A stretch of DNA of 64,000 bases from Rotaria socialis (taxonomy: Eukaryota), in contig CAJNYD010000529.1 in assembly GCA_905331295.1 (NCBI GenBank), positions 1-64,000 of the forward strand, read 5' to 3'. The notes under the pieces were generated by a model, which worked only from the letters and a program-made list of their open reading frames with translations, ran no database searches and was not told the origin of the DNA. The translations under genes were made by a program, and so were the position numbers. Below, piece after piece: positions 17,586 to 51,000 of the stretch. Within the stretch, counting starts at the first letter, position 1. The number at the start of each line of letters is the position of its first letter.

Positions 17586-18997
17586 TCAATTGAAGAAACT
17601 AGATTCGTTTTTGGATGTGGACAGAATTTTTTCGGCAGTTTTTAAATGAATTATATTGCTCACGATGACTGGAATTTTCATGTCAATATCCGAGAAAAGA
17701 CCAGAAACTTGAACTTTGATCAAGAGTTCATAACTCAAGACGATTCGTGCTCCAGTAAGCGAGGAAGGGTGTTCGATGGAGCATGTAGGTGGAATCGTGC
17801 GAGGTACAAATAATTCGAAACTTCTATGAAAATGTTCGCCACGAAATGATTGGGTTCCTTCCAAATCTCGATAAAGTATTTGCACTTGTTGCCGATTCAC
17901 ATAAAATAGTTGATCGCCTGGTATTCTCCTGGAGCTTATGTCCCAAATTTGAACAAGAGATGCCGACACGCCATATATAAGCACTTCATTCGAATTGTGT
18001 AAATCAATATCAAATAAGAATTTACTCTCAGTTACGACACGATTCTTCGGTAGAGTGACATGAATATGAACATTTCTATTTTTTTCTTGACTTTCGACTC
18101 TCGTTACATTTACAAACAGCGGTGAATTATGTCGAACATTAAGAAAAAAATTTTTGCAAACATTTTTCTTGTACCATTTGATTTGAGTCATTTCTATACG
18201 AATGAAATAGTGAACTAGTGGACTCTTCGGATCGGTTATGTTGATCGAAGGCAATAGGAGATGATCAACAAGGCCACTGAACGACCAAGTGTATCTACCG
18301 ATCGGTAGGGAAATCCCACTATCATTACCAATCGTGTGTGAAAGAAAATCTTGCTGGAAAAATACCATCCTATACGTCTTTGTTGATGTTGTTTTGCCTA
18401 TCTTCTCTGAAATGTTGTAGACAACCTCACCAACCAATATAATATTAATCTTCTTAAATTTTAATTCCGAATCATCACTATTGAAGAATTCGATTGTACC
18501 CGAAACAATCTCACCAGTGACATATTCAGTTTTGTCTTTATCAGTAAATTGACATTCTATACTCCATCCAGGTGGCAGAATGCTGACAAAATCTATAGCA
18601 TTAAAAAAGTATCAAAATATTTCAGAAAAGTCGACCTCAATGTGTGAATCTCAGATGTTAATCAAAGATAGACGCCATATAATTATAACAATTTACTTCG
18701 TAAAATTCAATTCTCTCAATTATACATAGGAAACTGTTTTCAACATGTGGAATTCGTATGTAGAACCGTTTTTTTCATACCTTTTGATTCTTCTCCGGAT
18801 AGATTAAATAAACCACTCCTGCCCACTGTAACCAAGACGCAACCAAGAATGGCTAACAGAATAATTACGATAAGCATAATTTTCGCACGCCTCGACATGC
18901 CCGATTCACCTGTAATATATGTTGGTTGATAAGTAACTAGGGTTGTGGGATGTCCATCGCAATTTGCAGACAGCATAGGTGATTGTACTGTATTCAT
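17586..18997 (-). CDS. Arrestin-fold (alpha-arrestin-like) protein with N-terminal transmembrane anchor, 407 aa, 2 exons
   Basis: Exons 18997-18781 and 18592-17586 join in phase 1 across a GT-AG intron. Arrestin-like motifs YVTGEIVSGTI, LVGEV, LPIGRYTWSF, LLPS, VHYFIR, IPPT, SYELLIKV, IPVIV. Hydrophobic IMLIVIILLAILGCVLVTV in exon 1. Confidence 0.75.
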
Positions 18998-20762: not shown

Positions 20763-23570
20763 ATGAACATGAATGCTCGTGAGTATTTTTTGAATAATGC
20801 TTTAATAGCAACAAGTTACTTGCCGTAAGTTTGGCAAACTTATTTTTCTATCGATTAGACAATTAGAAAAAATAAGTATAACATTACAGAAATATACATG
20901 TGATTTGGAATTTTTAAGATTCTGCTTGTTGTATGATCTAAGTCCAACTTTTATAAACATAAATATTTGGAAAAAACAACTAAAAACACAACAACAATTT
21001 TTATCATTTAAACGATATCTCATACAACAAGAATATTATAATAGAAATAAAGATATACAGAAATATGAAAGACATATAAATGAATTAAAAAAACATATTG
21101 AATCGGTTGTAAGTAGAATAGATTATGTTAAAATTGAAAAATAATTATAAGCTCGACAGAGTCAAACGTGAACGTGATAAGATAAAAGAAAATCATAAGA
21201 AAAAACTAGAAAAACTTAATAAAGGTCCTATAGGACAAAATTATGAAGCAACACATAATAAACTTGTTCATAATGTATCAACATACGTTCTCACTCCAGC
21301 TGAAGAGAGACTTCTATGTCGTGGCTGGAATTTTTGTATAAAAAGTAAAATTACAAAAAATGGATGACTTTAAAACGGATATGGAGATTAATGGAACAAA
21401 GCTCGAATCTCATTGTCATCCTTCTGTTTTCTCAACAGTGTGTCATCATCTACATGATTATGCAAATAAATATATTAGAAATATAAATAATAATAATATT
21501 CGTAATATTAGCGATGAAGAATTTCAGGCTATAAAAACATTGCGTAATAATAAACAAATCATAATAAGTCGTGCCGATAAAAGCAATGCCATCGTAGTGA
21601 TGGATAAAAAAGACTGCATAGAAAAAAATAATAATATTCTTCAATTAAAACAGTTTCAACATACAACTAGATCTCTACAAAAAGAGAAAGAAGAAGAAAT
21701 GAACAAATATCTTCGAGAGTTATATAAAGAAAATACTATAACTAAAGAACTATTTTATAGTATCAGGTCTACATGTTCGTCGATAGCTTGCATGTATGGA
21801 CAACCAAAAATCCATAAAAATGGTTATCCGCTAAGACCTATTATATCATCAATAGGGAGTTATAACTACGAACTCTCTAAATATCTAGCAGGCTTAATAA
21901 AAGCCAATCGCGAAAATAAGTCATTTTCATATATAAAAGACTCATTTGATCTCGTCAAACAAATAAGAGAAATAACTAACGTTCAACAACAAGTAATGTG
22001 TAGCTTCGACGTCGACGCATTATACACGAACGTACCAGTAAAAGAGGCCATAGACATAGTTGTAGAGTCTATGGGAAAATCAAAAACAATTAAAAACACA
22101 CCTTTTAATAAAAAACAATTTAAAAAATTGCTTGAACTCGCCGTTTGTAATGTACCATTCCGCTTCATGAATGAGTACTATATACAATGCGATGGTGTTG
22201 CGATGGGGTCACCACTCGGACCTATACTCGCTGATATGTTCATGAGTAAACTAGCAAATAAACTTAATAAATTCTCAAAAAACAAACCACAGGTGTGGTT
22301 AAGATATGTCGATGACATACTATGTATTTTTGATAATAAACAGAGCATTGATAATGTTCTTGAAAGTATAAATAAGTGGCATAAGAATATAAGTTTTACA
22401 ATAGAAACAGAAATAGATAATACAATACATTTTCTAGATGTACTAATAATTAGAAATATGAACACTAATAAATATGATACAACTATCTATACAAAAACCA
22501 ACAAATACTAACTTATATCTACTCTACGAAAGTAATCAACCTAGAAAATACAAACTAGGTCTTATAAGAACTCTAACTATTAGGATATTATTGTTATGTT
22601 CTTCTGATAGATATTCTAATCAAGAACTAATAGACCTAGAAAAAACCCTAGGTGAAAACGGATATCCTAAACATATTATACGTAGAGGTATCAGAGAAGG
22701 AAAAATAATTACTACAAAAATCATTAATAAACATAAACATATAAATAATAATAATAATAATAGTAACAACAATAATACATCAATAAAAAAGAAAATATTT
22801 TTCACGTTATCATACTATGGACATGAATCCAATATACTTGCATCAAGGATGCAAAAGCTATGTAAAAGATTTCTACCTCATCTAGAAATCAGTATAACAC
22901 TAAAAAACACTAACACGCTTAAAAATATATTCTTGTCTATACAAAAAGGCGTAGACGAAGATAATAAACTTAAAAAACTAGTTTATCAAATACCATGTAA
23001 AAACTGTAATTACAGCTACATTGGAGAAACTAATAGAAGTTTAACCACGAGAATAAAAGAACATAAAGAAGATATAAGGAAAGTAAAAGAAAACTCGAAT
23101 ACAGCACAACATGTATTCGAAAAGAATCACTCCTTTGATTTTGAGAACACAAAAATCTTATCTTCAGAAACAAACTGGAAACGTAGAGTCATAAAAGAAA
23201 GTCTTTTCACACACTACAGTTATGGTAAGTCTTTAAACGAAGTAAAACATGATTTAAAAATTTTCGCTTAAAAATAACATAAAAATAAAACCGATATAAC
23301 TATATATTATTTATTTATTTATTTATATTTAAGAACTTAATATCACTTATATATTCAACCTCTAGATATAAAAATACCACACTCCTTCACTCAATAACTA
23401 TCCGATAAACAAAGAAGAAATACACCTACATATATTAATCATCATTTTTACAATTAATCACTATTTTTTCATCTAGTATCTCTATATCTTATATAAAAAT
23501 GTCTCTTATTCTTTCTCTTTGTAATATTCCTGATGATGGTAAGAGTTCTTGCCGAAAGCTTGAAATAAAA
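20763..23570 (+). mobile_element. Penelope-like retrotransposon (RT + GIY-YIG endonuclease), frameshifted
   Basis: RT motifs YGQPKIHK, PLRPIIS, SFDVDALYTNVP, GVAMGSPLGP, RYVDD (21360-22511). GIY-YIG VYQIPCKNCNYSYIGETNR...RIKEH (22474-23271). The ORF is split across frames near 21135, 21360 and 22495. Confidence 0.95.
23525..23567 (+). ncRNA. Minimal type I hammerhead ribozyme in the Penelope 3' terminal region
   Basis: Core CTGATGA (23530-23536), stem II GGTAAGA/TCTTGCC, GAAA (23554-23557), palindromic AAGCTT stem III, stem I TATTC/GAAATA, followed by AATAAA. Confidence 0.8.
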
Positions 23571-28790: not shown

Positions 28791-29369
28791 TATTAGTAAA
28801 CTATTGAGATAATAAAAAAATGCATATATTTTAAGCGTTTCAAGGCACTCTTTCTAAAAAAATTACGATAGGTAATAAAGTGGCAACGGTTCAGTTAACG
28901 TCTACTTTTTACTGTTAATGAAAAGCTCACTGCTTTGTACAATAGCAGTATATTTCTTGAGTCATTTTTAATTTATCAACCCTATCGGCACAAATTTATT
29001 ACGATCCTAATCATGAATGTGATGATAAACGATTATTTGGGATGGTGAAATTGGTTCTACATTCAAGACACAAAACATGCTAGTCCACATCCACATTGTG
29101 ATGTGGGGTATTGTATAGTTTTGCTGTAAAACATTTTCCCGTTAGTTTTGTAGCGAAGAGGAGGAATGTTTTAATCACAGTTGAATCGAAAAGTCTTCAA
29201 GAAATATGTTGAAATAAAGTGATTGTACGTGCATAACAGCAATCATTTTATCTAAAACCCTTAGCCTTATAAGTGTGATTCAAATATTTTCAGTTAATTG
29301 GTGCCATTTTTTTATTATGTCTTTCTGTGCATATCGTCGCGACTCTCAGATGAAGAATGCAAAATATGA

Positions 29370-29831
29370 TCATTGTTGATGCACCTCCCAATTGATGTTG
29401 ACACCATACCGTTGTAATTTCTGAGGACCAACAAATTTGAGAATGTAAAGATAGTCAGCATCCGAATATTGAACGAGAGTATCATCTGAAGTGGTCACAT
29501 CCGTCTCTTGATTCTTGTAGATGCGAAAAATATTATTGACACCAGCGCGAACTTCATGATTCTCTAGATATAGAATGGATGGCTTCTTCTCTACGGTGAA
29601 TGAAGAGACGATGTTGATTGTGAGATTGTGTAGCGGGTACGACCAGAAGAAGCGAACTGAGTCACAGTTCACAAATTTAGTGTCTTTAAGATTGAGTATT
29701 GAATCTTCACATCCATCCGTCATCACAGTAGCAGTGCATTGCGCAAAAGAACTGATGCGAGCCTGGCAAGAATCAGTAGCTTCACTTTTAACGACGATGC
29801 AGAGGTAGGCAATAATAACAGCGAGAAACAT
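29370..29831 (-). CDS. Small putative secreted protein of unknown family, 153 aa, single exon
   Basis: ATG at 29831, signal-peptide-like MFLAVIIAYLCIVVKSEA, four Cys in the mature N-terminal part, beta-rich-looking remainder. Confidence 0.65.
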   Translation of the reverse strand: MFLAVIIAYLCIVVKSEATDSCQARISSFAQCTATVMTDGCEDSILNLKDTKFVNCDSVRFFWSYPLHNLTINIVSSFTVEKKPSILYLENHEVRAGVNNIFRIYKNQETDVTTSDDTLVQYSDADYLYILKFVGPQKLQRYGVNINWEVHQQ

Positions 29832-31097
29832 GATAATGGCTGATATCACCGTTTGCGAATGAATGAATGAATGAATGATATAATGCAAGGATAGAATCCT
29901 TTAAGAGTAAAATAAAGAAGTGCATCCAGATGGACATAATCACACAGTGATTCAGACAATTGTGATCCCATTACATTTTGAGTGCAACTTCAAAAGTATA
30001 GTCATGCTGACAGAACAGCTTTAATTCATCGAATAAGAAGTGAAACCAAAAGAGAAATATTCAGAATATCAATAAAGAGGTACTTGAACACAAATGAGAT
30101 TTTATTCACTTTCAGCTGATGAGCTACGTGAAAAAGCATAATTGCGCAAGATGTATCTGTTTTTTTATTCTCCTTTTAAAAATAGGTTTTTTTGGTCAGT
30201 ATTATTTTTAAAAGAATTATATGTAAATGTTAACCCTAATTATTACATCTTTTTTGGCCCATTTTACCTAAAAATGGCTGAAAAATAAAATTCGAAAATA
30301 TTTTCTCCATTTTCCATCAATAATAAAATCGTTCTGATAGGCTCTTTTTTTCATTACCAAAGTTGTGTAGTTTTCTGGAGAGCAACTGATTACGCAGGCG
30401 CATCTTGAATACAGTTATTAAGAGTACCAATATTGAAGCTTGTTCAATCTAAAATATCACCACAATCATATACATTATTGCCGACATTGCCAGTATATTC
30501 ACACCTTCATCGATATTCAATATATGTTCTACAATTCATTTTCGCATGAATGTGTTAGTTTTAAGTTGAGAAAATGAAGTACAGAATAAGCAGATTTCAT
30601 TGTTTATCTATACATAGTTTGGGTGTCAACTAGCTAATGTAGTGGAGAGGCTCTCTTAGAAAACTCAATGAAAATGGTAAATTTCTCTGTAACTGCTGTG
30701 TCATATCGATTGTATCCACGCTAGGATGTTTAGTTTGGCAACTCTGATGCGAATTTTTTCTTAGAAACATGCCGCATGAAACTACCAATAAACACTGTTT
30801 CTTTCAAAAAATAATATATTTGGTTCTGCAATAATTTTCTCTTTTTCTTTAAAAAAAACATACAGATCTGTCGCATCATAAGTCTTTCTTGTGATAAAGA
30901 TATTTTTTATGTGGGATTCTCCCCATCGAATATATTTATTTAGAGAAGAGTAATTTACGATGACAGATAGCTTGTCAGCTGTAAAGCAGAAGTATATATG
31001 ACACTTCATTTTCTTCTCTCCTTACATTTGTGATACAGATTCATCAAAGTAACTATTGCATGAGTTTTCTGAGGAACAACACTAAAGCTAACGGATA

Positions 31098-31557
31098 GGC
31101 CAAAAAGAATTAAAGCGCCAGTATTTTGATTGTTTCTCCTCGTTGTTATACTTGATCGAGTTAATTTTGTACCTGAAGATTTCCCTTTCAATTTTCTACA
31201 AAACAGTTTACTCTAGTGACAAAGTAGGATTTTCTCTAGGTAGAATGTAAGATTCCTTATTTTTTCGATTATTCCATTCCTCTCTAATAATCCAATTCCA
31301 ATGTTCCGTTTCTAAATAAAGTTTTCTGGTCAGAATTCGAACTAGTTGCTGCGAAATAGCGTTTCTCTCAATAATTTGGCTTGAAATATGAACGAAAAAA
31401 CTTGGGAGTTTTCATTTTAAGGTTTGTTTTTTCATTCTGTGATTATATACCATTGAAAACCCTAGAGAAGTCTAACTTTGCTTGTAAAAAATTAATTCAA
31501 TCAAGTGTTAACCCGAGGAGAAAATATGAAAATACTGGTGCTATAGTTATTTTTGAC
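31098..31557. repeat. Degenerate ~75-bp inverted repeat pair, probably part of an old DNA transposon
   Basis: 31098-31172 resembles the reverse complement of 31484-31557 (ccagtatttt...ttctcctcg...acttgat..a.ttaatttt). Confidence 0.5.
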
Positions 31558-31664
31558 TCACTCGTTGCATACAGTTACTTTTCAACAGTGTAAATAAGTT
31601 TTAAAAAAATATTTTCTTCAGACACTATTAATTAATCCTTCGGTACAATTAAAACGCTAAAAAC

Positions 31665-32257
31665 ATGGCTCCAAAAACCATTTCTAACCATCTGTTAGAT
31701 GTGAGCGTCTTGTTAGTTTTTGCCATTGTTCTGGTAGGTAAAAGCATGAGAAGTTAAGATTCAGTCTACTTTGATTCGTCATTATTTATCAGGTCGTGTC
31801 AGCAACAAGTGAACAAGATAAGTGTTTGAAACCTTACGGCGATTCCTGTACAGATTCGACGCCGATGCCAACAAGAGCTGAAGGTTTAGGAGTTTATTAT
31901 GAAGAACCATGCTACGGAGTCGGATGTGGATTCTTTCGACCTTACTGCCGTCTTTGTTGGATTGATCCAAAAGCACCTGGTAGAATGGATCGTCCACAAT
32001 GTCCGCAATGTGTTATTGATCGAGAACGGAGAACAGACACTCAAGATCTACGATGTAAACTGCCTCCTGGAAACTCTTGTACCAGCGGGACGCCGAAAAA
32101 CACGAAAAAGGAAGGTTTAGGAGTTTATTATGAAAACCCATGCCATGGAGCCGGATGTGGATTCTTTCAACCTTACTGCCGTCTTTGTTGGATTGATCCA
32201 AAAGCACCTGGTAGAATGGATCGCCCACAGTGTCCAAAATGTGTAGCTAGCTTTTAA
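31665..32257 (+). CDS. Putative secreted protein with two tandem 8-Cys modules (~177 aa, 2 exons)
   Basis: Exon 31665-31733 (MAPKTISNHLLDVSVLLVFAIVL), 59-nt intron, exon 31793-32257 (VVSA-TSEQDKC...). Two repeats of C-x7-C-x11-GLGVYYExPCxGxGCGFFxPYCRLCWIDPKAPGRMDRPQCPxC. The start codon is less certain than the rest. Confidence 0.8.
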
Positions 32258-32894
32258 TGTCATGCTATTAAAGTTCAAATTTATTTCCCCTATGTAGCCC
32301 GTGACCTTATCAAACCTTTTTTTCTAAGGTACTTTACACATCACTGTTCCTTTTTAGTAGTACAAAAAATAAATTATGTATAATATAATGTGCGCGTGTG
32401 TAATACAGAGATAGTGAGAAAAAGAAAGCAATGGAAAACTGTCACAGACACCTTGTTTACATTATTTTTGGCTTCCTCCTACGATGGAGAGATGTAATTA
32501 AATTCACATTTATCCGTGAACATTTTGGTATGAAGAAACAAAAAATGCATATATAATAGAAGTATATTTTGTTACGTTTATAATATCTTTAACATCGTTT
32601 TGACGCATTTTTTCCCTTAAAACCTTTTCTCAAGCCCGGTTAGTTATCTGTTCAGTAAAAGTTTAAAAAAAATAGCGAGTTAATCCCGTAATTTTGAAAT
32701 TCTATCGTTCGTTGTGTTGATATTCTACTTTGCAAGTAAATGCAGTGAAATTATAAGGCAATCTCGTGCATCATCTATATTCTTTTATATTTCTCTTTGA
32801 AGACAGTTTTTTTCCTAGAGCAAATTGTACGATACGTTGCTTGTTTATCACAAAACTTCGTAAAAAGTCGTCTGATTTTTTTAATGTCAAAGCG

Positions 32895-33140
32895 TGTAAG
32901 ACTTCTTTTCTTATCGGTTGACTATTGTACCCCTTTATTGAAGAAAACACTCCATCATCTATATTGTATGAAAACTCAGACAGAGAGATAGTTAGTACAA
33001 GAGAGAAAAGGAGATAGAGAGAGTTAGTACACCGAACGATATATGTTCCTTTGACCTGTGACAAGAGACATGAAGATAAAACTGCATAGAAGAAGAATAA
33101 AAGTGATGATATGATCTCACGAAAGATGAAGATTATAACA
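32895..33140 (-). repeat. 3' LTR (246 bp), preceded on the minus strand by polypurine tract GGGAGAGG
   Basis: Direct repeat of 38322-38561; cctctccc at 33141-33148. Confidence 0.95.
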
Positions 33141-33412
33141 CCTCTCCCGTACAAAAAAAACGGTGCGCGCCCCGTGCATCGAACAATGATCAGTATAAAT
33201 AAGATAAAATGAAAACTTTTTTGTTTTTGTATTATAAGGTACTTCTTGTGATCTGTTAAAATTGAGAATTTGAGTTGCCACACCTCAATTTGATAATGAT
33301 AAGACGTTGCCACGTCGTCTTCGATCACTGTTGATAATCGTGATAAAATATGATTGTATCAGTTTGAATACTTTGTAATTAGACGACTCGTTCCATAACC
33401 CGTTGTAGTTGA

Positions 33413-36400
33413 CTAATATGAGCTCATGTAAATTTTCGTTTCATTATTTTGAACAAAATAATTTTGTTCACCTGTCTTATTGATCATTTGACAAGGTCTT
33501 ATCCGCCGTTCATCTAATTTTGTACGATTAGCACATACCTTCAGAAATACTAAGTCACCAATAGAATAAGACAAATCTTTGCGATGTTTGCCATATCGCA
33601 GTTTTGTTAATTGTTGTTGATGACGCATGTTTTCTTGAGCTTGTTTAAGAATTGTTCGTCGTGTTTTTTGTAAATATTTGAAAAATGTATGCGGTCGAGT
33701 TAAAGTGAAGTTGCTCGAGTTAGAATCAAATGAACTCTTTTGTCGTCGACCAAATGCAAGTTCATACGAAATAAAGCCAGTTGTAGCATGGATGCCTGTA
33801 TTGTAGACATAAACTACGGACTGAAGATAATCATCCCAGCCATCTTCGTTCTCATCATAATACTTTCCCAGCTGTGTACAAAACGTAGCATTAAAGTGCT
33901 CGACTTGGCCATTCGTTTGCGGATGATACGAAGCTGAAAATGAATGAGTAGTTTTTATCATTGTGGTAATTGTCTTCATTAATGTGTGGTTAAAATGTAC
34001 TCCGTTATCTGTAATAAGTCGTTCAGGTGCACCATGTATCATAATGAATTCGTTCATAATGAATTCAGCAGTAGCCTTAGCAGTATTATTTGAGATCGCT
34101 TTTGCTATCACGTACTTTGATAAATTGTCCGTAAGCACTATCACATATCGATTCCCCTGTGACGATGTGCGAACAGGACCCCAGAAATTCATATTTAATA
34201 CTTGAAATACATCTGTTGGTGGATCAAACGATTTAAGATGATCTGGTGTTTTGCTTTGTACGATATTGAATTTCCTGCATTTTTGACATGATGCGATGTA
34301 ATGTTCAATTGATTTGCGTATAATCAGGCCACTAAAATCGAGTATGAATTTTATGTAAAGTGCGTTGCACTCCGAAATACCCACTCAATGGATGATAATG
34401 AAATGCTTCTAATAGTGTGCTTAGCATTGACACAGGTAAATAAGGAAACGTGCTCTTGGTACTATCGTTTTTCTTGGTGATAAGACGAAATAAGATGTTG
34501 CTGTACAGTACATAGTTATCCATTTTCTGTTGGGCATGAATACGTGAAATAATAAGTTGAATATCAATATCATGATTTGTTCACTTTTGATCTTTTCCAA
34601 AGAAAAGTCTAAAATTGAGGTAGATTTAAGTAGAGGTGTTGATGTTTTCGGGTGATCTTCGGTCACGGTTGGTAATGACGAAGCACTTGTAGTTGCTTGT
34701 TTTGTTATAGATCGAGTGATGGCAGAAAGTGACTGTTGCTGATTGTCACTATCAATTGTTTCATATCGAGTAAGATAACCAGGACCGATATTGTCAATAC
34801 CACGCCTATACTTTATTTCAATAATTTGTGGTATTAAATCTTGTAAATATATCAACCAATTGTCAATTCTTTTGTTACCATAGTTTCGCTTCTTATGCAT
34901 ATTGACCAATGGCTTGTGATCTATTCCGATGGTGATTTCAGAATCTCCAATATAATTTCTCAATTTAGTAAGACACCAATAGATCGCTAAAGCTTCTTGT
35001 TCTGTGGTTGAATACCTACTTTAAATGTCATTCAGTAATCTGGATTTGCAGTAGCAAATCCTCAATCCATCAGTTGTATCTTGCTTGAGTACATCAGCAA
35101 TTCTTAGATCACTTGCATCTGTAGATAAGATAAATGGTACTGATCGGTTTGGAAAATCGAGGAATAGTGGTGCACTTGTCAGTATTGATTTAAATTTGTC
35201 GAAGGCATCTTGTTGTTGTTGTTCCCAACGAAATTCATTTCTTTTTGTTCTTGTCTTGTTAGTAACCTTGTGAATGGGTGCAGCAATTTTTGCGAAGTCT
35301 GGAATAAATTTACGATAATATCCAATTTTACCTATAAACTTGTTGGCTTGTGAAAGCGTTTTTGGCGGAGCAATATTAACAATTGCTTTGATCTTGTCTA
35401 ATGATGGTTCCAATTTGTCAGATGTAACAAAGTGACTTAAAAATTCGATCTTTTTGACGGCAATTGAGCATTTTGCTGGTGATACTTGCAAGTTGGCCTT
35501 GTGAAGTGTTGAGATAACGTCGGCCACGTGTTGTTTGTGTTCTTCGATTGTTTTCGAAAAAATCACAATATCATCAAGATAGACAACCACATAGTCCCAT
35601 CGTCCATTGGCCAATAATTCATTCATCACCCTTTGGAATGTTGGTGGAGCATTCATAAGACCTTGAGCAAGTACCGTAAATTCATAGAGGCCGTCTTGAG
35701 TGATTATAGCCGTCTTGGGTATATCGGATTTGTGTATTGGTATTTGGAAGTAACCGGACTTTAAATCTAATTTGGTGAAGTATTGATGCCCAGCCAAACG
35801 ATGAAGTAACTCTTCAGCTGATGGTTGAGGGTATGAGTCCTTTTTTGTGATTGAATTCAGTCGGCGGAAGTCAACCAGAAATCTATACGTACCATCCGGT
35901 TCCCTCTTTAATAACACTGGTGACGACCATGGCGAGTTTGACGGTCGAAGAATTCCTTGATCAAGTAACATTCCTACTTCCTGTTGAACTTCCTTTCTTT
36001 GTTGTACTGTCTTATAATATGGTCGAACACTTGTTGGTAGGTGATCACCAGTGTTGATTGTATGATGAATCTTGGTTTTTGCTCTGGTCATTTTTGAGTT
36101 GTCAAATGAACGTTCATTTTGTCGAAGGATGTTAGGAAAATCATTGCGATTGTATTTGTCACCAATGTGCATCACTAATTCTTGAAGAGTATTTTCGAGT
36201 AATGATAATTTTAATGATTCTTGTTGTTCATTTGTTTGTATTGAATTCAGTTGAGTACTTTGTTCTGTCATACTTGATTGCTTATCTGTGTTTAATATGC
36301 TATACATCATTTCATCATTTGACTGATAGTGTATTGATCCAAGTTTTTTAGTACTAGCTAGTTTGTAGATATTTTTGTTAGGATTATAAATGCAAACATA

Positions 36401-37021
36401 AAATGAGAAATCTTTAATTTCAACAAAAGCATCAGATACTTGAACATTTAACTTAGCACATTTTTTAATATCTGGTAAAAAAGAAACAAGATTAGCAGAT
36501 GAAATCGGTACATAAATTTTGACTATATGCTCATGATGTGGTAATAAAGTGATGCATTCAGCGAGACGGACATCGGCTGACCCTGAGTTCAAGAAAGGTG
36601 TTATCGTAATTCCGTATTTTGGATGATTTATTTCGACTTGTTTTTTACCGATATTCACGTTCACATTATTTGATTTGCACCAGTCCATACCAAGAATTAA
36701 ATTTGCACCTAATGAATCGACAATCAGAGCTGTAATGATGGTAGCAATATCATTGATAGTAATAGTTAATTCAACTGCACCGCTGACTATTATTTTGGTT
36801 TTTCCATCACCAAGTACTGCTGTTGTTTGAATTTGTTGAATTGGTGGATGTGTAATAAGATCAAGTTCAGTTTGTGATATAATTGATGTAGTAGCTCCCG
36901 TATCAAGCATCGCATGAATTAATGTACCATTAACGATTGTTCCAATTATTATAAGTGATGGGTGAGATTGTGGAAAGGAAGTATGACCATCACATACTCC
37001 CCCTAGTAGTTTTTTGAACAA
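33413..37021 (-). pseudogene. pol: Gypsy pol (protease, RT, RNase H, integrase) with a stop and frameshifts
   Basis: LDTGA, YLDD, TDAS, TDNG, PQTNGQVE. In-frame TAA at 35021-35023 inside RNase H; frame shifts near 34550 and 34340. Confidence 0.95.
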
Positions 37022-38259
37022 TTATATTGATAATGGTCCATACCACCGCATGACCAACATCCGCCATAGCTTTTCTCACTGTTGTTATGTTGAGGTTGAT
37101 GTGAAGCGTATGTTGTGTAATGCTGTTGATGTCGTGGTTGTTGTGACGAATTGTTGTATTGGTGTTGCGGAGAATTGTATTGCTGTTGTGGAATCGAAGA
37201 ATAAGGTTGTTGTTGGATGAAAGGTTGTTGTGTTGTTGTTGTTGCTATATGTCTACGATTATCAAAAGATATGGTAGCTCTCACCTGATTCTTTTCTTCT
37301 TCTTGCCATTTGTCATACTTAATAAGAGCTTGAAGAAATTCTTCCAAAGTGGCAGGACTTTTTAAATCCATATGTAGTTGAGCTGCTGCATTCAGTCCTT
37401 TAGTAAGATGTTTGAGTCGAGTTTCATCATCCATGTATTTATTAACCTTTGAACAAAGTCTTAGAACATTATGACAATAATCAATTGCTAATTCATTTGT
37501 TTGTCGTCGTCGATTGTAAAGCTTTTGTTCCAGTTGAAAATGATCGGTACCAGTTACAAGTTTAAAATAGGTTGTTAATTTATTTTTTAATGTTACCCAA
37601 TCATGAATTGTGTCCTTGTATGTATCATACCATAATTTGTCATTGCCCTTGAGAAGATCAATAACCACCGATAAACGTTGAGCATCGTCTAGTTGAACTT
37701 GATCACACTTGTTACTAAAGTTGTTGATCCAATCTGAGACTTCTTGTGAAGCTGATCCAGTGAATGGAGTAGAATCAAGAAGTTGATTGATTCTTTTAGA
37801 GTGTAGTTGTTTAACAGCTTGTTCCTTAAGACTAGACTCCATATTCATAATAACAGACGATGTTGACTGCCACAATGGAGCTGTTGTTAATGATGATGTT
37901 TTTGTTGGCAGTACATTGTGACATAACGCATTACTTACTTGTATAGCTTCAATTGTTTGAGTAAGATTGTTGATGGTGAACTGTTGTGTTGCCATCTCTT
38001 GGTTAATTTCTTTGTTTTCATCTAGAAGCAAATCTTGTTTAGCCAATAGTCGTTGCATTAATAACATCATTTTATTTGATTGTTGAATATCCATTTGTGC
38101 TTGTTTGTTTTCATCTTGATCATCCATTCGTATCTGTTGTTGTTCGATGTAGGATGGAGATGATCCTCGTCTTACTTTGTGTTCAGAATCAGTTAATGAC
38201 GAAAATTCTTGCTTCTGTGCCATGCTTCGAGTATGATGTTTTCGTTCGTTGTTGTTCAT
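37003..38259 (-). CDS. gag: Gypsy gag, 418 aa
   Basis: Open ORF, capsid-like region, Q-rich linker, CCHC knuckle CWSCGGMDHYQYNC. Confidence 0.92.
   Translation of the reverse strand: MNNNERKHHTRSMAQKQEFSSLTDSEHKVRRGSSPSYIEQQQIRMDDQDENKQAQMDIQQSNKMMLLMQRLLAKQDLLLDENKEINQEMATQQFTINNLTQTIEAIQVSNALCHNVLPTKTSSLTTAPLWQSTSSVIMNMESSLKEQAVKQLHSKRINQLLDSTPFTGSASQEVSDWINNFSNKCDQVQLDDAQRLSVVIDLLKGNDKLWYDTYKDTIHDWVTLKNKLTTYFKLVTGTDHFQLEQKLYNRRRQTNELAIDYCHNVLRLCSKVNKYMDDETRLKHLTKGLNAAAQLHMDLKSPATLEEFLQALIKYDKWQEEEKNQVRATISFDNRRHIATTTTQQPFIQQQPYSSIPQQQYNSPQHQYNNSSQQPRHQQHYTTYASHQPQHNNSEKSYGGCWSCGGMDHYQYNCSKNY
37009..37015 (-). promoter_or_regulatory. -1 ribosomal frameshift slippery site A AAA AAC (gag/pol)
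   Basis: gag reads TCA AAA AAC TAC TAG; pol is open in the -1 frame across the same bases. Confidence 0.8.
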
Positions 38260-38303
38260 GTACGACTCCGGATTACTTACTGTGTTGTTGAATTGTCAGT
38301 AAG

Positions 38304-38319
38304 ATCGGCTAGTGCACCA
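38304..38319 (-). promoter_or_regulatory. Primer binding site TGGTGCACTAGCCG (resembles the complement of a tRNA-Gly 3' end)
   Basis: Begins with TGG 2 nt inside the 5' LTR; tRNA identity is an inference. Confidence 0.7.
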
Positions 38320-38321
38320 AT

Positions 38322-38561
38322 TGTAAGACTTCTTTTCTTATCGGTTGACTATTGTACCCCTTTATTGAAGAAAACACTCCATCATCTATATTGTATGAAA
38401 ACTCAGACAGAGAGATAGTTAGTACAAGAGAGAAAGAGAGAGAGTTAGTACACCGAACAATATATGTTCCTTTGACCTGTGGCAAGAGATATGACGAGAA
38501 AACTGCATAGGAGAAGAATAGAAGTGATGATATGATCTTACGAATGATGAAGATAATAACA
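38322..38561 (-). repeat. 5' LTR (240 bp)
   Basis: Direct repeat of 32895-33140. Confidence 0.95.
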
Positions 38562-38640
38562 AAGCGTTCATATTTTCGCAAATTATTTGTCTCATGGCGA
38601 TGACAAGACTTTTTCGATAAAAAATACAATGTAAGTGAAT

Positions 38641-39718
38641 TCAACTGAATTTGCTTAAAACCACAGAAACGCACGGTGGACACTGTGGACGGTCCATTTT
38701 GCCAGGTGCCTTTGGATCAATCCAACAAAGACGGCAGTAAGGTCGAAAGAATCCACACCCAACTCCATAGCATGGTTCTTCATAATAAACTCCTAAACCT
38801 TCAGCTCTTGTTGGCATCGGCGTTGCCATTGTACAAGAGTTATCCCTAGGCAGTTTACATCGACCATCGTTGAGATCTAGTTTAGGTGGCGGGTGAGGGT
38901 CAGGGTCATTCGAAAAAAATAAATAAATTATCACCGCAATCGTTGCTGATATCATTAGAATAAAGCCAAGTGATAGGATAATTAAACGTTTCCGATTACA
39001 ATAAATTCCTCGAAATTTATTAATTCCAATATTGATGGAGTGCGGTCCAGAATGAATATTTTCTGCTTTTGTGACTGGTGTTACCATTGACATAACTGAT
39101 ATTGGAATATTTGTATTGTTAGTATTAATTTGATGAAGTTCCTGAGTCATATCTTGAGGAAAAAAATGGGTACTTATAAATTATTCACATGTACAATGTA
39201 AAATGAATTTCACACAAACATACGTGAAATATGTGTTGTAGCTATTTTATCATCTTCCATATCTTTCATCAAGTCATCGACAAAACTCGAACCACTACTC
39301 GTTGTAAACTGGAGACAGCGGCTGTTGCTGCTCGTATCAGCTGTAGAAGTCACATTATTGTCAGAGTTCGACGGTGAACGAGTTTTTAATATTCGTTGTT
39401 GAAGTTCTAAAAGATAGCAGACGAAACAGTTAGAAGTCTTTCATGAAACACACATATACCTCTTAAACTCTTCGTTGCTTGATAACATTTGATAGCTTCA
39501 AATGCTGCAATTAAATAGGTAAAGTTTTCTTCCGATATTTTTCTTCGATCGAAAAGTTGTTGAAATATGTTTAATGTGCCGCCAATTGTTGGATCGTCTA
39601 TAATACTTCGTTCAATATCTTCGCTCAAAAGAAACGATAGTTTTTTTCGTTCGTTAGCACCCAAATGATCAAGAATATCGATTAGTACTGTACGAAACTG
39701 TTTGTTTGGCTCATTCAT
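38641..39718 (-). CDS. Type II membrane protein: death effector domain, linker, TM helix, 8-Cys ectodomain; 317 aa, 3 exons
   Basis: Exons 39718-39460, 39406-39224 and 39152-38641 join through two phase-1 GT-AG introns (53 and 71 nt) into a 954-nt open frame. Exon 1 is DED-like (FRTVLIDILDHLGANERKKLSFLL...LNIFQQLFDRRKISEENFTYLIAAFEAI). TM LIILSLGFILMISATIAVIIYLFF follows RKR. The C-terminal module matches the 31665-32257 repeats. Confidence 0.85.
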
Positions 39719-45086: not shown

Positions 45087-48000
45087 ATGGCTCAAAAGAA
45101 TCCTAAAGGTGGTGGTGGTAGTGTGTCAGCAACAAAACATATCGATAATAATGATATGTTTTTAAAACGAGCTCTAGAAAAATTATTAACTGAAAAAGAT
45201 ATGAAAAAATCATACCATCAACAATTAAAACGTGCATGTGAAGCAGCACTTGGTGCGTTTTCTTCTCTAATGGCTCCATAAAAATATATATTTATTACTT
45301 ATTTTAGCTTCTTTAACAAAAGAACCTCGAACTACAAAGTAAATTCAATCGATATTTGTTTTTTTCTTTTTTTAACTATTTTTCTTTCAGTATTTTATCT
45401 ATTCACGAAACTTATTTTCTTCCGTTTGAATTGGCTTGTACATCAAAGAATTCTCGAATGATCGATACTTCACTGGATTGTCTTCAAGTAAAATTTTGAA
45501 ACATTTCATTAGAAAAAAAACCGACAGTAAGCTCGTGTTTAGAAACTTCTTTTAAATGGTCACGCAATTGGCAATATAAGTGATCCGATCGATTCATCAA
45601 AATTATTAATCGATCGTATTGTATCTGTTATTTGTGCATGTTTTTATGGCATCCAAACTGAAGAAAAAGTTGAATTACAAATAATAAAAATTTGTTTAAC
45701 TATAATGACGTCGCAAACAGTTGAAATTCATCAACGTAGTGTGCTACAAATAGTTAAGACATGTTTTAATATTTATTTAACAAGCCGTTCGAAAATTAAT
45801 GAGGCAACAGCACAAGGTTGTCTTTCACAAATACTTAATGGAATTTTTTCGAAAATGGAACAAAAAATGGTTTGAAATGATTTTGATTTTTTTCTATATT
45901 TGAAAGATGAAATTTTATTTAGAGTTTAGTTAATGAGCGTAAACAAAAAGAAACAATAAGTGTAGTGACAACTGATTATGATGAAGAACAAGTAATTATT
46001 AAAGATATTCTCGATGAACTTGTTGAGAAAATTGTTTATGGTAAGAAACACTCATTTTTATTTTTGACCAATGAAAAATAATATGCAATTCAGATGAAGC
46101 AACACTAGTAGAAACCAATAGTTCATTGTCAAACAACGAAATTATTGAAGATACTCAATCAACACAAGGAGATATCAATGGCGAAATAAGACAGAATGAT
46201 GGAGGTAGGCTATCGGACTTGTTCTTGATAAGAGATTAATGATGATTGACGTTTGTAATTTGATCCGATGCAAAAGAAGTATATTGTTTTTCCTATTCTG
46301 AAAATAAGGAACAATTTATCTTTATTNGTGGAGGTAGGCTATCGGACTTGTTCTTGATAAGAGATTAATGATGATTGACGTTTGTAATTTGATCCGATGC
46401 AAAAGAAGTATATTGTTTTTCCTATTCAGAAAAAAGGAACAATTTATCTTTATTACAATCGAGTCTTCTTAAATAATGAATTTAATTTTGAGAGCATTGA
46501 TCAACTGAATAAATTAGCCCAGATTCTACTGCATATAGGTCACTATGATAAGATTGTCCCAGGTACTGTGTTTGTAGATGAATCCCAATAACCAATGAAA
46601 ACCTTGATTTCTTATCTGCAAAGAGACTTGAAATCTCTAAATTTTGAATATCTCCATATCTACTGCATATAAGTCACTATGATAAGATTGTCCCAGGTAC
46701 TGTGTTTGTAGACGAATCCCAATAACCAATGAAAACCTTGATTTCTTATCTTCAAAGAGACTTGAAATCTCTAAATTTTGAATATCTCCATTCCCCACTC
46801 AACACCGTATCATATCGTGCTGCTTGAATAAATAAAAATTTCGTATAAGCTTTTTTTTGTACTTCTTATTTTGACTTGTCACAATAGAAAACGAGAACCA
46901 TAGTTTTCATTCGATAGACACAGACATTCCTATCTACTTGACGTCACGAGTACCCGTATAATCTAAAGAAAACTTTTTACTAATTCTATTTTTGAAGCTG
47001 GATCTCAAATTTGCCTAAACATTATTTATCCGATAGCTGTCTCATACATGAATCCCATTTAATCTGTGATTTGAATGTATTCAAACTGATAAATATTTGT
47101 TAGTCCAGAAAAGTAATCTGCTTATCATTCGTTAGCTGATAGCAAGAAGACATTTCTTAGTGGTACCAAATTTTAATTTCTCTATATTTAGATTTGCAAT
47201 CGATTGATGAAGCATCATCTATTGGAAAAGTCGTGTCATCTTCATTATCAGCTGATGAAATATCTGCTGATAATTACTTCCGACATGCATATTATGTTTT
47301 TCGTGCCTTATGTAAACTATCTGACCGAGATATTAAAGATAAAGTCAATACAGATCCGAAGTATGCCAAAAATTAAATAAAAAACATGAACATTTCCTTT
47401 TATTCTATAGGACTAATTTGGATCTTAAATCTCGAATATTTTCATTACGTCTAATAATACAAATACTTCAAACATCGGGTCCAATATTTCGTTCATCAGA
47501 AGATTTTCTCCTGATAATCAAAACAAGTTTATGTGTATCATTATCACGTAATGGTGTTTCGTCCATACCTGAACTGTTTGAAATGTCTTTATTTAATTTT
47601 GTTGAATTACTTGACAAATTCAAAGCACATTTAAAAATACAAATTGAAGTAAATGAAATTATCTTTGTTTATAGAAAAAAAAGAGAAGACTTCCATTAAT
47701 TCAAATAGGTTCTATTTCGTGAAATATTCTTAACAATACTCGAAACATCGACTAGTTCATTTCGTCATAAATGGCTTGTTATTCAATCGTTGACAAAAAT
47801 TTGTGCAGGTAATTCAAATTTTTCTAGTGTCGAATGATGTTTTTTTTTTCTTGTTGCATAGATGCTCAAATAATTGTTGATTTATTTATTAATTATGATT
47901 GTTCAATGCGATCTGGAAATGTATTCGAACGTCTTGTAATTGTTCTTTCACGTGCAGCACAAGGTCGACAAGCCGTAGAATTAGGTATGGATATATTCGA

Positions 48001-51000
48001 GAAAGAAAAGCCTATTCTTAGATTAAAAAAAAATGAAAAATGACTTTTTGTGGGTATATGCAGCTTAGCAATTACAATTATTTTGTTTACGAAATAACCA
48101 AATTGATTATGCACTGTCGCAATAAACTATTGCGTGACAAGTAAAGCAGCATAATCTCCGAGACAACTAAACGGAGATTGATCCAATCAACTATTCGATT
48201 TAATCAGATAGGGAAAGACAACTTTGGCGGCTGATACGCCTTAGCAGATATTGTTATTTTTCTATTTACACAAATGATTTATGTATGAAAAATTATATCT
48301 ATCCTATAATGTTCAAAATATTTTCCTTTCAAATTGTTCTATCTAGTGGAACTATCATATAGAAATACACTAAATATTCATTAAACAGGAATAAAAACTC
48401 AAGTATAATTTTAAAACCACGAGTTAAAAGTAACTCTCCGTTAGTTTATAATCACTGATAACAAGGAACAATTGTTTATGGGCGTAATATCCCATCCTAT
48501 TTACGCTCTACTAATCATCCGTTATGGCAGCAATTCAGATCCGAATATGTTTTTTTGACTTTCAGTCAATATCAAACAGATCGATCAGAATTATTTTTGT
48601 TTTGCTAAATAGGTTGCAGTCAAGTAGAAGAGCATAATTTACGAATGAAAGGCCTCGAATGTCTTGTCTCAATATTACGATGTATGGCTGATTGGAGTAA
48701 AGATCTGTATGTCAATCCACATCTACAAAGCAATTTAGGTTTGTTTTTATTTTTCAGTTTTCAGTGGCATTTTCGAATCTTTTCTTAGGACCAGATACAA
48801 AACCAGTAAATGAAAATGGTCACGATCAAGATAGTAATCGATCATCGTCAGGTTATGTCGGTAGTGGAATTCGTCGTACGGATTCAAGTGCTTCAATAAA
48901 TTCCTCGCAATCAGCAGAACATGTTCATGATTTTGAATTAGTTCGTCAACGTAAAGAATTATTCGAAAAAGGCATCGATTTATTTAATCAAAGTGCTAAA
49001 AAAGGCTTAGAATTTCTCATTGATAAGAATCTTTTGAATAATGAACCGGAAGATATTGCGCAATTTTTTCATTCGTATCAAGATGTGTTAGATAAAACAG
49101 TGATTGGGGATTGTCTCGGTGAAGAGGATAAACGTCATAAGCAAATTATGTATGCGTATATTGATCAAATGGATTTCATACAAATGGATTTTTTAACGGC
49201 TTTAAGAAGATTTTTAGCAGGATTTCGATTACCTGGCGAAGCGCAAAAAATTGATAGATTAATGGAAAAATTTGCTGGAAGATTTTGTGAATGTAATTCA
49301 AAGTAAGGAGAAAGAAAAAGATTTTTTTGTTATTATTTCTTTCAAACTGAATAATATTAGGAGAATATGTTTTAAATCAAGGGTAGGTCTATTGAAACAT
49401 AGATAGAATGCATCGCTCTGTTTTAGCTAGATTAAACATGCATTACTTTCGAAGTAAAAGTAGTTTAGCGATTTACGATTGAAATAGAAAACCATAGTTG
49501 ATTACAGTGATTGTTTAAACAGGTGTATCTTAGAAAATTTCAAAGCGATGAAAGATTAGAGGCTAGAAATTTTTCTTTCAAAATGCTGCCTTCGAAAAAC
49601 TTTCTTCAAGAGTGTAATACATAATTTAATGTTTTAAAATAATAACTAAGCCTTTTAGTATAAAATGATTCGAAATTCTCTTCACATCGATAATGACAGA
49701 TGAGACAAATTTGAATTATCTAACTTTTCCGTATGATAATATTTTTTTAGTTTACAAATATTCGCCAGTGCTGATGCAGCCTATGTTCTGGCGTATTCCG
49801 TTATAATGCTGACAACAGATTTACATAGTATTAATGTAAGTAAATAGCTCAATGAATATAACAAAAAAACAATTCTCTAAAATACTTTAGGTGAAGAAAA
49901 AAATTACAAAAGAACAGTATATAAAAATGAATCGTGGCATTAATGACAGTCGTGATTTACCAGAAGAATTTCTATCGAAAATTTATGATGAAATTAAAAA
50001 CGAAGAAATCAAACTTAAAGTTACGTCAATGAAACGGGGAACAAAAGAAACTATTACAAATGATAAACAACGAGAATTATTATTTACTGTTCAAATGGGA
50101 AACGTCGAGTCCATAGCACGAGATTTAATGACTAGTGCAGGCTCCATGAGTGAAGAGTTTACTATAGCAAAAAATTTAGAACATGTTGGACCTATGTTTC
50201 AAGTGAATAGACTTACTAGTTTGTTCGTGAATTAAAGTTAATGAATTTTGTTTAGAAAGCCTGGTCACCATGTTTAGCGGCATTTAGTGTTAATCTTCAA
50301 GATAGTGATCATATAGATCTTACAAATCTATGTTTAATTGGTATTAGCTATGCTATTCGTATAGCTTGCATCTTTCATATGGAGGTTTGACTATTAGGAT
50401 AGATTTAAATTTGTATAAATAGATTTGTTCTCGTCTAAAAATTTAGCTTGAACGTAATGCATTTATTCAAGCATTATCACGTTTTACATTACTCATGGCA
50501 ACATCACAAGTCATAGAAATCAAAGCAAAAAATGTTGAATGCCTCAAAATACTAATATCAGTTGCACAAACCGATGGAAATTATCTTGGTGAAGCTTGGT
50601 ATGATGTAAGTATACGAAAATTTCAATCAGCTCGTTATAAATTTCGTTCTATTAGGTTTTAAAATGTATTAGTCAATTGGAATTAGCGCAATTATTTGGT
50701 GTTAATGTTAATAAAGGAAAAATGTCGGTTTCAAATCATCATCAACTGGGTATACCAACGCATATCGGTTCACCTTCAACATTCAGTTTACCATTTGATA
50801 ATATTTTCAATACTGACAAAGGTATGCTAAAGCTTAGAATCGTACAGTTTTTATCTATTTACTCTCTCACAAAACATATTGTAGAAAATATTCATGACTA
50901 TTTTTCCCGATATGAGGAGTCTAAGAAACGGCTAAATTCTTTAGGTTTGAAAGTATCAGCTTTTCGTAGGATTCGAATTTGAAAAATAAATGGAAAGATA

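What the first reader, a model, noticed from the sequence alone, without database searches (positions are those of the whole stretch)
31665..39718. Candidate receptor / soluble-partner system: DED-TM-Cys receptor paired with a secreted tandem copy of its ectodomain
Seen: two convergent intact genes share one ~65-aa 8-Cys module. One has it once, C-terminal to a TM helix with an N-terminal DED-like domain. The other has it twice after a signal-peptide-like leader. Removing the Gypsy insertion leaves ~710 bp between the stop codons. Established: DEDs are homotypic modules of FADD and caspase-8/10; classical death receptors (Fas, TNFR1) are type I proteins that use a death domain and need FADD. 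Inference: a membrane sensor that recruits a DED caspase or adaptor directly, with a soluble bivalent decoy, opsonin or co-receptor for the same ligand. This may be an innate-immune module. Novelty and function are untested.
Basis: partly seen in the sequence, partly recalled or inferred. Interest (0 to 1): 0.9.

Follow-up and report, generated by a model that had tools for sequence, protein, structure and literature searches.

The report
Rotifer DED receptor with secreted twin
Two neighbouring genes of a bdelloid rotifer share a small cysteine-rich domain that is otherwise seen in water moulds and algae: one is predicted to be a membrane sensor with a cell-death-type signalling domain inside the cell, the other is a transcribed, likely secreted double copy, and together they likely form an undescribed immune recognition pair whose binding domains are likely kept alike by gene conversion.

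Summary
Observation confirmed. Gene B (39718-38641, minus) equals a 317-aa Rotaria socialis protein: N-terminal DED (Pfam E 1.9e-8, just under the cut-off), one TM helix, one 8-Cys module. Gene A (31665-32257) has a hydrophobic leader and two modules. Without the Gypsy the stops lie 711 bp apart. One RNA-like run splices A's intron and B's first intron; B's second intron, which joins DED to TM and module, is untested. Both genes occur in 4 of 5 named bdelloid species, apparently linked. New here: (1) the module has no Pfam or PDB match but is homologous to repeats in oomycete, brown-algal and raphidophyte surface proteins, four copies trailing a GH81 glucanase, pointing to a horizontally acquired, possibly glycan-binding domain; (2) receptor and secreted copies show gene-conversion tracts and do not group by role (AU p 1e-5; p 0.07 within one subtype). 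Best reading: pattern sensor plus soluble bivalent partner, signalling by DED clustering. Ligand, binding and output are untested.

The parts
31620..31664 (+). 5' untranslated end of gene A; transcript contig begins with 11 non-genomic letters at an AG, as expected of spliced-leader trans-splicing
   Evidence: loose end at 31620; context; bdelloid trans-splicing in PMC1925144; likeness to the leader itself is recalled, not tested
31665..31733 (+). gene A exon 1: start and hydrophobic leader (predicted signal peptide)
   Evidence: hydropathy 2.59, residues 10-28
31734..31792 (+). gene A intron, 59 nt, GT..AG
   Evidence: spliced out in an X1 contig
31793..32257 (+). gene A exon 2, to the stop codon
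   Evidence: covered by X1 contigs
31823..32017 (+). 8-Cys module S1
32054..32248 (+). 8-Cys module S2
32368..32386 (+). gene A polyadenylation signal and poly(A) site
   Evidence: AATAAA at 32368; poly(A) loose end at 32386
32895..38561 (-). degenerate Ty3/Gypsy LTR retrotransposon between the genes (LTRs 32895-33140 and 38322-38561, 5-bp target duplication; pol split over several frames). Passenger, not part of the system
38641..39152 (-). gene B exon 3: juxtamembrane region, TM, short stalk, module, stop
   Evidence: 3' part covered by X1
38665..38859 (-). 8-Cys module M of the membrane protein
38914..38988 (-). predicted single TM helix (about residues 203-227), basic N-side: predicted type II topology
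   Evidence: net +5 before, -2 after; helix in the model
39153..39223 (-). gene B intron 2, 71 nt, GT..AAG; predicted only
   Evidence: same join in the public model P0005; not covered by X1
39224..39406 (-). gene B exon 2, low-complexity cytosolic linker
39407..39459 (-). gene B intron 1, 53 nt, GT..AG
   Evidence: spliced out in an X1 contig
39460..39718 (-). gene B exon 1: DED-like domain

Best explanation
The two genes likely form a recognition pair: gene B is predicted to be a type II membrane sensor that holds one 8-Cys module outside the cell and a DED inside, gene A is a transcribed, likely secreted bivalent form of the same module, and both would bind the same foreign surface ligand, most likely a microbial wall glycan such as beta-1,3-glucan. 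Shown: gene structures, two of three splices, the shared module, its homology to stramenopile repeats, both genes in several bdelloids. Inferred: the module entered bdelloids by horizontal transfer from a stramenopile and was fused to an animal DED; a polymeric ligand clusters the monovalent receptor, and the DEDs assemble through the conserved hydrophobic patch with each other or with a non-caspase-8 partner; the soluble form coats the ligand (opsonin or agglutinin) or competes for it (decoy); gene conversion between the inverted neighbours keeps their specificity matched, as in Siglec-11/16.
For: Architecture and splicing. Module homologous to stramenopile repeats: of 27 hits among 1.84 billion representatives, 8 are named oomycete, brown alga or raphidophyte proteins, 5 named bdelloid, none a named other animal; profile-profile 99.06%, E 1.7e-18. 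All 11 stramenopile-type proteins examined end in a hydrophobic segment, as surface proteins do, and P0035 carries four modules after a GH81 glucanase, the usual position of a carbohydrate-binding module (established knowledge). Conversion: 56-nt identical tract S1-M (p 1.5e-4) in which S2 differs at 13 sites; synonymous differences 5/39, 4/32, 1/32 in the core against 5/13, 5/16, 7/15 in the flanks; the window's allele of A differs from allele P0002 at 3 residues and matches the receptor at 3 of 3; a clade of all membrane-form modules is rejected, AU p 1e-5, as is an S1 clade, p 0.0035. A. steineri keeps the DED at 68-78% but its module at 51-55%. The caspase-8 FL motif aligns and is kept in 5 of 5 species. 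Bdelloids face over 60 fungal and oomycete pathogens and upregulate acquired glucan-binding genes on infection (PMC11258130).
Against: No ligand, induction or binding data. The glycan idea rests on one GH81 fusion family; the other stramenopile-type proteins scanned carry no Pfam domain. Intron 2 is not shown spliced, has an AAG acceptor, and one R. magnacalcarata model (P0021) stops in it, giving a DED-only protein. The A. vaga model P0008 has no TM between DED and module. No secreted form named from A. steineri was found. Within the main subtype alone a membrane-form clade is not rejected, p 0.073. Conversion between inverted neighbours can be neutral. The DED scores below Pfam's cut-off in 5 of 5 full proteins, lacks RxDL, and the model's fold match is inconclusive. 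The tree does not fix the direction of transfer. Linkage outside the window is read from accessions and contig lengths, not from DNA.
Confidence: 0.45

Rival explanations
1. Non-immune sensing or adhesion: the module binds polysaccharides of food, biofilm or the animal's own mucus or cuticle; the secreted form is a glue or particle-capture protein and the membrane form an anchor or feeding sensor whose DED is a general scaffold.
For: Stramenopile relatives look like Ser/Thr/Pro-rich surface or wall proteins; both genes are transcribed in a run not known to be an infection; DED-like domains also serve non-apoptotic roles (established, PEA-15).
Against: A death-fold domain held at 68-91% identity across five species and joined to a diversifying ectodomain fits immune receptors; conversion between membrane and soluble forms is typical of pathogen-facing pairs (PMC5701461 abstract).
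Confidence: 0.2
2. Gene A is the endogenous ligand: modules bind each other, so the bivalent secreted protein cross-links two receptors and triggers DED assembly; conversion keeps the two surfaces compatible.
For: Two or three repeats on a spacer suit a cross-linker; tight linkage and matched sequence suit a self-recognition pair.
Against: The module's place after a glycoside hydrolase suggests a substrate-binding role instead; no A. steineri secreted form was found beside its receptor.
Confidence: 0.13
3. One reading: a true death receptor shortcut in which the DED recruits an endogenous DED caspase and kills the cell, with A as decoy.
For: Best PDB hits are caspase-8 DEDs and the FL patch is kept; receptor-caspase shortcuts exist in amphioxus (PMC2575513).
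Against: PMC12066828 states rotifers lack DED-containing caspase-8 (an aside, partly contradicted for flatworms); a search with the DED returned only 6 proteins, all orthologues of gene B (insensitive to distant DEDs).
Confidence: 0.12
4. The genes are functionally independent paralogues; their likeness is a neutral by-product of conversion between close inverted copies, and the DED and TM-module exons may even be used as separate products.
For: Inverted copies 0.7 kb apart in the empty site; intron 2 unproven; exon 3 begins with an in-frame ATG; DED-only model P0021.
Against: DED, TM and module are joined in this order in public models of four species; both genes have stayed intact and apparently adjacent across two genera.
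Confidence: 0.1

Closest known systems
TNFRSF death receptors with soluble decoys (Fas/DcR3, TRAIL-R/OPG; decoy names recalled)
   Same: Cys-rich ectodomain, single TM, cytosolic death-fold domain, and a soluble protein made of the ectodomain.
   Different: Here type II, DED not DD, no TNFR repeat, one module on the receptor and two on the soluble form, no known TNF-type ligand.
DED proteins: FADD, caspase-8/10, FLIP, PEA-15, DEDD, DEDD2 (list from PMC4558505, passages)
   Same: DED profile match and the FL hydrophobic patch.
   Different: None in that list has a TM and an ectodomain; RxDL is absent here. BAR/BFAR and BAP31 are membrane proteins with DED-like segments (recalled), but they are multi-pass ER proteins without a sensor module.
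Dectin-1 and other type II C-type lectin receptors (recalled)
   Same: Type II topology, stalk, single C-terminal disulfide-rich domain; glucan sensing by clustering is the proposed analogy.
   Different: No C-type lectin domain; signalling domain is a DED, not a tyrosine motif.
Paired receptors kept alike by gene conversion (Siglec-11/16, PMC5701461 abstract; CEACAM, listing only)
   Same: Neighbouring genes share a ligand domain homogenised within lineages.
   Different: Partner is soluble and bivalent; unrelated domain; asexual invertebrate.
Amphioxus 'shortcut' receptors such as TNFR-caspase and DED-NACHT (PMC2575513, passages)
   Same: Domain shuffling joins a sensor directly to a downstream death module.
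   Different: Different domains; the sensor here has its relatives in another kingdom.
Unnamed stramenopile Cys-rich repeat (Phytophthora, Pythium, Pylaiella, Heterosigma, Fibrocapsa proteins; P0035 GH81 fusion)
   Same: Homologous module, G-x-G-x-Y-Y and C-x-x-G-x-G-C...C-R-x-C core.
   Different: There it sits in repeats ahead of a C-terminal anchor; here it is fused to an animal DED or secreted.

Membership tests
TNFRSF death receptor | type I topology with signal peptide | tested here: not met
   no N-terminal hydrophobic segment; single TM at 203-227 with basic N-side
TNFRSF death receptor | TNFR cysteine-rich domains | tested here: not met
   no Pfam TNFR hit up to E 10
TNFRSF death receptor | C-terminal death domain | tested here: not met
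   only an N-terminal DED hit
DED family | DED profile above curated cut-off | tested here: inconclusive
   E 1.9e-8, 34.9 bits against 35.9; 31.5-35.5 bits in 5 of 5 full proteins; only family hit on exon 1
DED family | six-helix death fold | tested here: inconclusive
   six helices in residues 5-96, pLDDT about 60-72; Foldseek top 4 are FADD DD and PEA-15 DED but E 0.65-0.87; VIA best death fold AIM2 PYD Z 4.4, rmsd 3.4, 64 aligned, rank 25
DED family | hydrophobic FL patch on helix 2 | tested here: met
   F29-L30 align with the caspase-8 FL motif, invariant in 5 of 5 species; role from PMC4558505
DED family | E/D-RxDL charged triad | tested here: not met
   absent in 5 of 5 species
DED family | homotypic DED binding | not testable with these tools
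   no rotifer DED partner in hand
Type II C-type lectin receptor | C-type lectin domain | tested here: not met
Carbohydrate-binding module | match to a described CBM family | tested here: not met
   no Pfam hit for bdelloid or stramenopile modules
Carbohydrate-binding module | occurs appended to a glycoside hydrolase | tested here: met
   P0035 and its two full-length cluster mates: GH81 then four modules; one family only
Carbohydrate-binding module | binds a glycan | not testable with these tools
   needs a glycan array
Paired receptor or decoy kept alike by gene conversion | linked genes sharing a ligand-type domain | tested here: met
   window directly; other species by accession and contig length
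Paired receptor or decoy kept alike by gene conversion | conversion tracts or clustering by lineage, not by role | tested here: met
   but p 0.073 within the main subtype
Paired receptor or decoy kept alike by gene conversion | same ligand, different outcome | not testable with these tools
   experiment needed
Horizontally acquired domain | nearest non-self relatives are non-metazoan | tested here: met
   8 named stramenopile and 0 named non-bdelloid animal hits of 27; 14 carry no taxon name
Horizontally acquired domain | nested within the donor clade | tested here: inconclusive
   53 modules, 69 columns; deep forks 75/80
Horizontally acquired domain | resident in the host genome, spliced, among animal genes | tested here: met
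   Six-type homeobox, Sec7 and arrestin-fold genes in the window

The most novel reading that the evidence does not exclude
Bdelloids captured a surface or wall-binding domain from the oomycete-algal lineage that includes their own parasites, fused it to an animal DED to make an adaptor-free immune receptor, and pair it with a secreted bivalent twin that is re-synchronised by gene conversion; in animals reported to lack caspase-8 the DED would signal by a route not yet described. It would be a cross-kingdom chimeric receptor and a way for an asexual animal to retune sensor and soluble partner together without sex.
Probability: 0.25. Interest if true: 0.9.

Novelty: new variant of a known kind. 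Interest (0 to 1): 0.7.

Why it matters
Bdelloid immunity is almost undescribed beyond acquired enzymes. This locus offers a concrete receptor candidate with a small, foldable ligand domain that can be put on a glycan array. It would add a membrane-anchored, sensor-fused member to the small DED family, ask what a DED does in an animal reported to lack caspase-8, define an unnamed domain shared with crop- and animal-pathogenic oomycetes, and give a case of horizontal transfer plus domain shuffling building a signalling receptor and not just an enzyme.

Tried and rejected
No whole genome is held, so paralogues, DED caspases and FADD could not be surveyed. Complex prediction of gene A with the gene B module: no verdict, score 0.00 twice, partner fold uncertain; not used either way. 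Fold searches of the tandem model (mean pLDDT 76.7): nothing at E 0.001 in PDB or the viral library; VIA best Z 2.8, on the leader helix only; this shows no known fold match and not a new fold. PDB sequence hits of the module to Kelch proteins cover 20-35 residues and no stretch passes alone: rejected. ESM Atlas: no usable hit for gene A or P0046. Metagenome scan gave one locus, L001, a bacterial off-frame chance match: dropped. Viral and prokaryote contigs: 0 of 11 and 0 of 2 candidates confirmed. Three of the 27 hits (P0037, P0039, P0040) are unrelated repeats and were dropped. Infection expression: the raw table of PMC11258130 is too large to read, files 8, 9 and 11 were not searched, and no DED term or locus number was found in the rest; none in the one held supplement of PMC12220480; these unseen supplements may bear on the immune claim. 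No RNA holder on record was listed; X1 is taken as RNA from its spliced joints and poly(A). Lack of cover over intron 2 is no evidence. Contig depth was not used to rank genes. Trees left out degenerate or duplicate rows (P0027_2; also P0042_5, P0068_1, P0068_3, P0036_2). Literature searches listed no paper on this gene pair or module; PMC8878817 on rotifer lectins has no DED or cysteine-rich passage; subscription papers are not covered. Earlier findings of this scan: none.
Full report
Observation. The window is from the bdelloid rotifer Rotaria socialis or a very close strain: the two exon models translate letter for letter to database proteins P0005 (317 aa) and P0011 (177 aa) of that species. 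Gene A (plus strand, 31665-32257, one 59-nt intron) encodes a hydrophobic leader and two 65-aa modules. Gene B (minus strand, 39718-38641, introns of 53 and 71 nt) encodes a DED-like exon, a low-complexity linker, one TM helix, a short stalk and one module. All three modules have eight cysteines at the same spacing and are 78.5-83.1% identical in DNA over 195 nt. A degenerate Gypsy element with a 5-bp target duplication fills 32895-38561; the empty site leaves 711 bp between the stops.

Expression. Two runs held the stretch, neither on record as RNA. Contigs of X1 skip exactly the gene A intron and gene B intron 1, carry a poly(A) tail at 32386 behind an AATAAA, and begin with non-genomic letters at an AG at 31620, so X1 behaves as RNA. 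Bdelloids trans-splice a 23-nt leader to over half of their transcripts (PMC1925144, passages); that these letters are the leader's end is my recollection. X2 reads through intron 2 without a gap and looks like DNA. Intron 2, the join that makes B a membrane receptor, is therefore untested by RNA. It has an AAG acceptor, and one R. magnacalcarata model (P0021) stops inside it. Public models of R. socialis, R. magnacalcarata, A. ricciae and A. steineri do join DED, TM and module; the A. vaga model lacks the TM and has a long extra N-terminus, likely a misprediction but not checked.

The DED. Pfam DED is the only family hit on exon 1 (E 1.9e-8, 34.9 bits, cut-off 35.9) and caspase-8 DEDs are the best PDB sequence hits (E 8e-4). 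The FL patch, which mediates DED contacts (PMC4558505, passages), is invariant in five species, while RxDL is missing. AlphaFold gave six helices at modest confidence; structure searches were inconclusive. Hydropathy and flanking charge predict DED inside, module outside. A DED search returned six proteins, all orthologues of B. A figure legend in PMC12066828 says rotifers have no DED-containing caspase-8; its parallel claim for flatworms is contradicted by bioRxiv 2023.12.11.571055 (passages).

Conservation. Both genes are present in R. socialis, R. magnacalcarata, A. ricciae and A. vaga, that is 4 of the 5 named species; A. steineri gave a receptor but no named secreted form. Linkage elsewhere is inferred from consecutive accessions or locus tags and shared contig lengths, not from DNA, and orientation is unknown. 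Unnamed environmental proteins add more TM-stalk-module fragments and two- or three-module forms.

The module. It matches no Pfam family or solved structure, yet AlphaFold models both repeats alike with a small beta core at pLDDT 75-90. A profile search of 1.84 billion representatives gave 27 hits: 5 named bdelloid, 8 unnamed rotifer-like, 8 named stramenopile (Phytophthora cactorum, Pythium insidiosum, two Pylaiella, Discosporangium, Choristocarpus, Heterosigma cluster, Fibrocapsa), 3 unnamed stramenopile-like and 3 unrelated repeats. Profile-profile comparison gives 99.06% and E 1.7e-18, and a profile of stramenopile modules alone scores the bdelloid proteins at 37-128 bits (the stramenopile modules were first cut with the bdelloid profile, so this is not fully independent). 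Core cysteines and glycines are shared. All 11 stramenopile-type proteins examined have a C-terminal hydrophobic segment, so the module is extracellular there too. P0035 bears four modules behind a GH81 endo-beta-1,3-glucanase. This is the only functional clue and suggests a carbohydrate-binding module. No named non-bdelloid animal, and no viral or prokaryote contig, holds it. Transfer from a stramenopile is the simplest reading, but the 69-column tree does not resolve direction.

Concerted evolution. The rotifer modules fall into two subtypes split at 100/99, and each subtype contains both membrane and tandem forms. Flanks are shared across subtypes: the secreted gene's exon 2 start in P0077, and the DED at 68-78% in A. 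steineri while its module is 51-55%. So both architectures predate the split, yet modules group by subtype; a clade of all nine membrane-form modules is rejected (AU p 1e-5; roles of five environmental proteins are inferred from architecture). Within the main subtype a receptor clade is not rejected (p 0.073) but an S1 clade is (p 0.0035). In the window, S1 and M share a 56-nt identical tract in which S2 differs at 13 sites, and S1 and S2 share 54 nt; synonymous differences are 5/39, 4/32 and 1/32 in the core against 5/13, 5/16 and 7/15 in the flanks (region limits were my choice, and the permutation null ignores selection). The window's allele of A differs from another allele, P0002, at three residues, and at all three it matches the receptor. 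This is the pattern described for Siglec-11 and -16 (PMC5701461, abstract). It is compatible with selection for shared specificity, and also with neutral conversion between close inverted copies.

Mechanism. I commit to a recognition pair (0.45): a monovalent type II sensor clusters on a polymeric microbial ligand, likely a wall glucan, and its DEDs assemble; the bivalent secreted form binds the same ligand as opsonin, agglutinin or decoy. The setting fits: over 60 fungal and oomycete pathogens attack bdelloids, which upregulate acquired glucan-binding genes on infection (PMC11258130, passages and some supplements). Ligand, clustering, partner and outcome are all inferred. Rivals: non-immune adhesion or feeding (0.2), A as endogenous cross-linking ligand (0.13), classical DED-caspase death signalling (0.12), independent paralogues (0.1).

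Comparison and verdict. It works like a death receptor with a soluble decoy, or like Dectin-1 in topology, but fails the membership tests of both. None of the DED proteins listed in PMC4558505 has an ectodomain; amphioxus shortcut receptors are the nearest idea (PMC2575513, passages). Nine literature searches listed nothing on this pair or module. It is a real, conserved, apparently undescribed architecture of a known kind, with a cross-kingdom sensor domain as its most surprising feature. Interest 0.7.

Noticed in passing
window 38354-38640: An X1 contig runs from gene B's last exon into the Gypsy LTR and ends at 38354, just past the only minus-strand AATAAA in that stretch (38361, inside the LTR). 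The insertion may supply the receptor's polyadenylation site; no poly(A) tail was seen on that contig.
   Followed up: partly
window 39153-39223: Retention of intron 2 would give a soluble DED-only protein of about 151 aa, as in model P0021; a possible PEA-15 or short-FLIP-like regulator.
   Followed up: no
window 29223-29900 (minus): Divergent neighbour of gene A: an intronless, signal-peptide-like ORF of about 150 aa with no Pfam hit, covered by an X1 contig.
   Followed up: partly
window 31090-31566: Inverted repeat, 83-nt arms, 76% complementary, just upstream of gene A; MITE-like.
   Followed up: no
   Followed up: partly
P0041, P0080, P0081, P0082: A third module subtype from unnamed assemblies keeps the stramenopile-like GGVGC motif and lies outside the rotifer clade; its taxon would bear on the direction of transfer.
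   Followed up: partly
window 21342-23271: Penelope-like element: reverse transcriptase and GIY-YIG in two frames.
   Followed up: no
window 17586-18611, 45543-55164, 59017-59397, 62446-63027: Ordinary animal genes: arrestin-fold protein, Sec7 protein, CoA transferase, Six-type homeobox. An ABC-transporter-like gene spans the N gap near 27700 (recalled motif).
   Followed up: no
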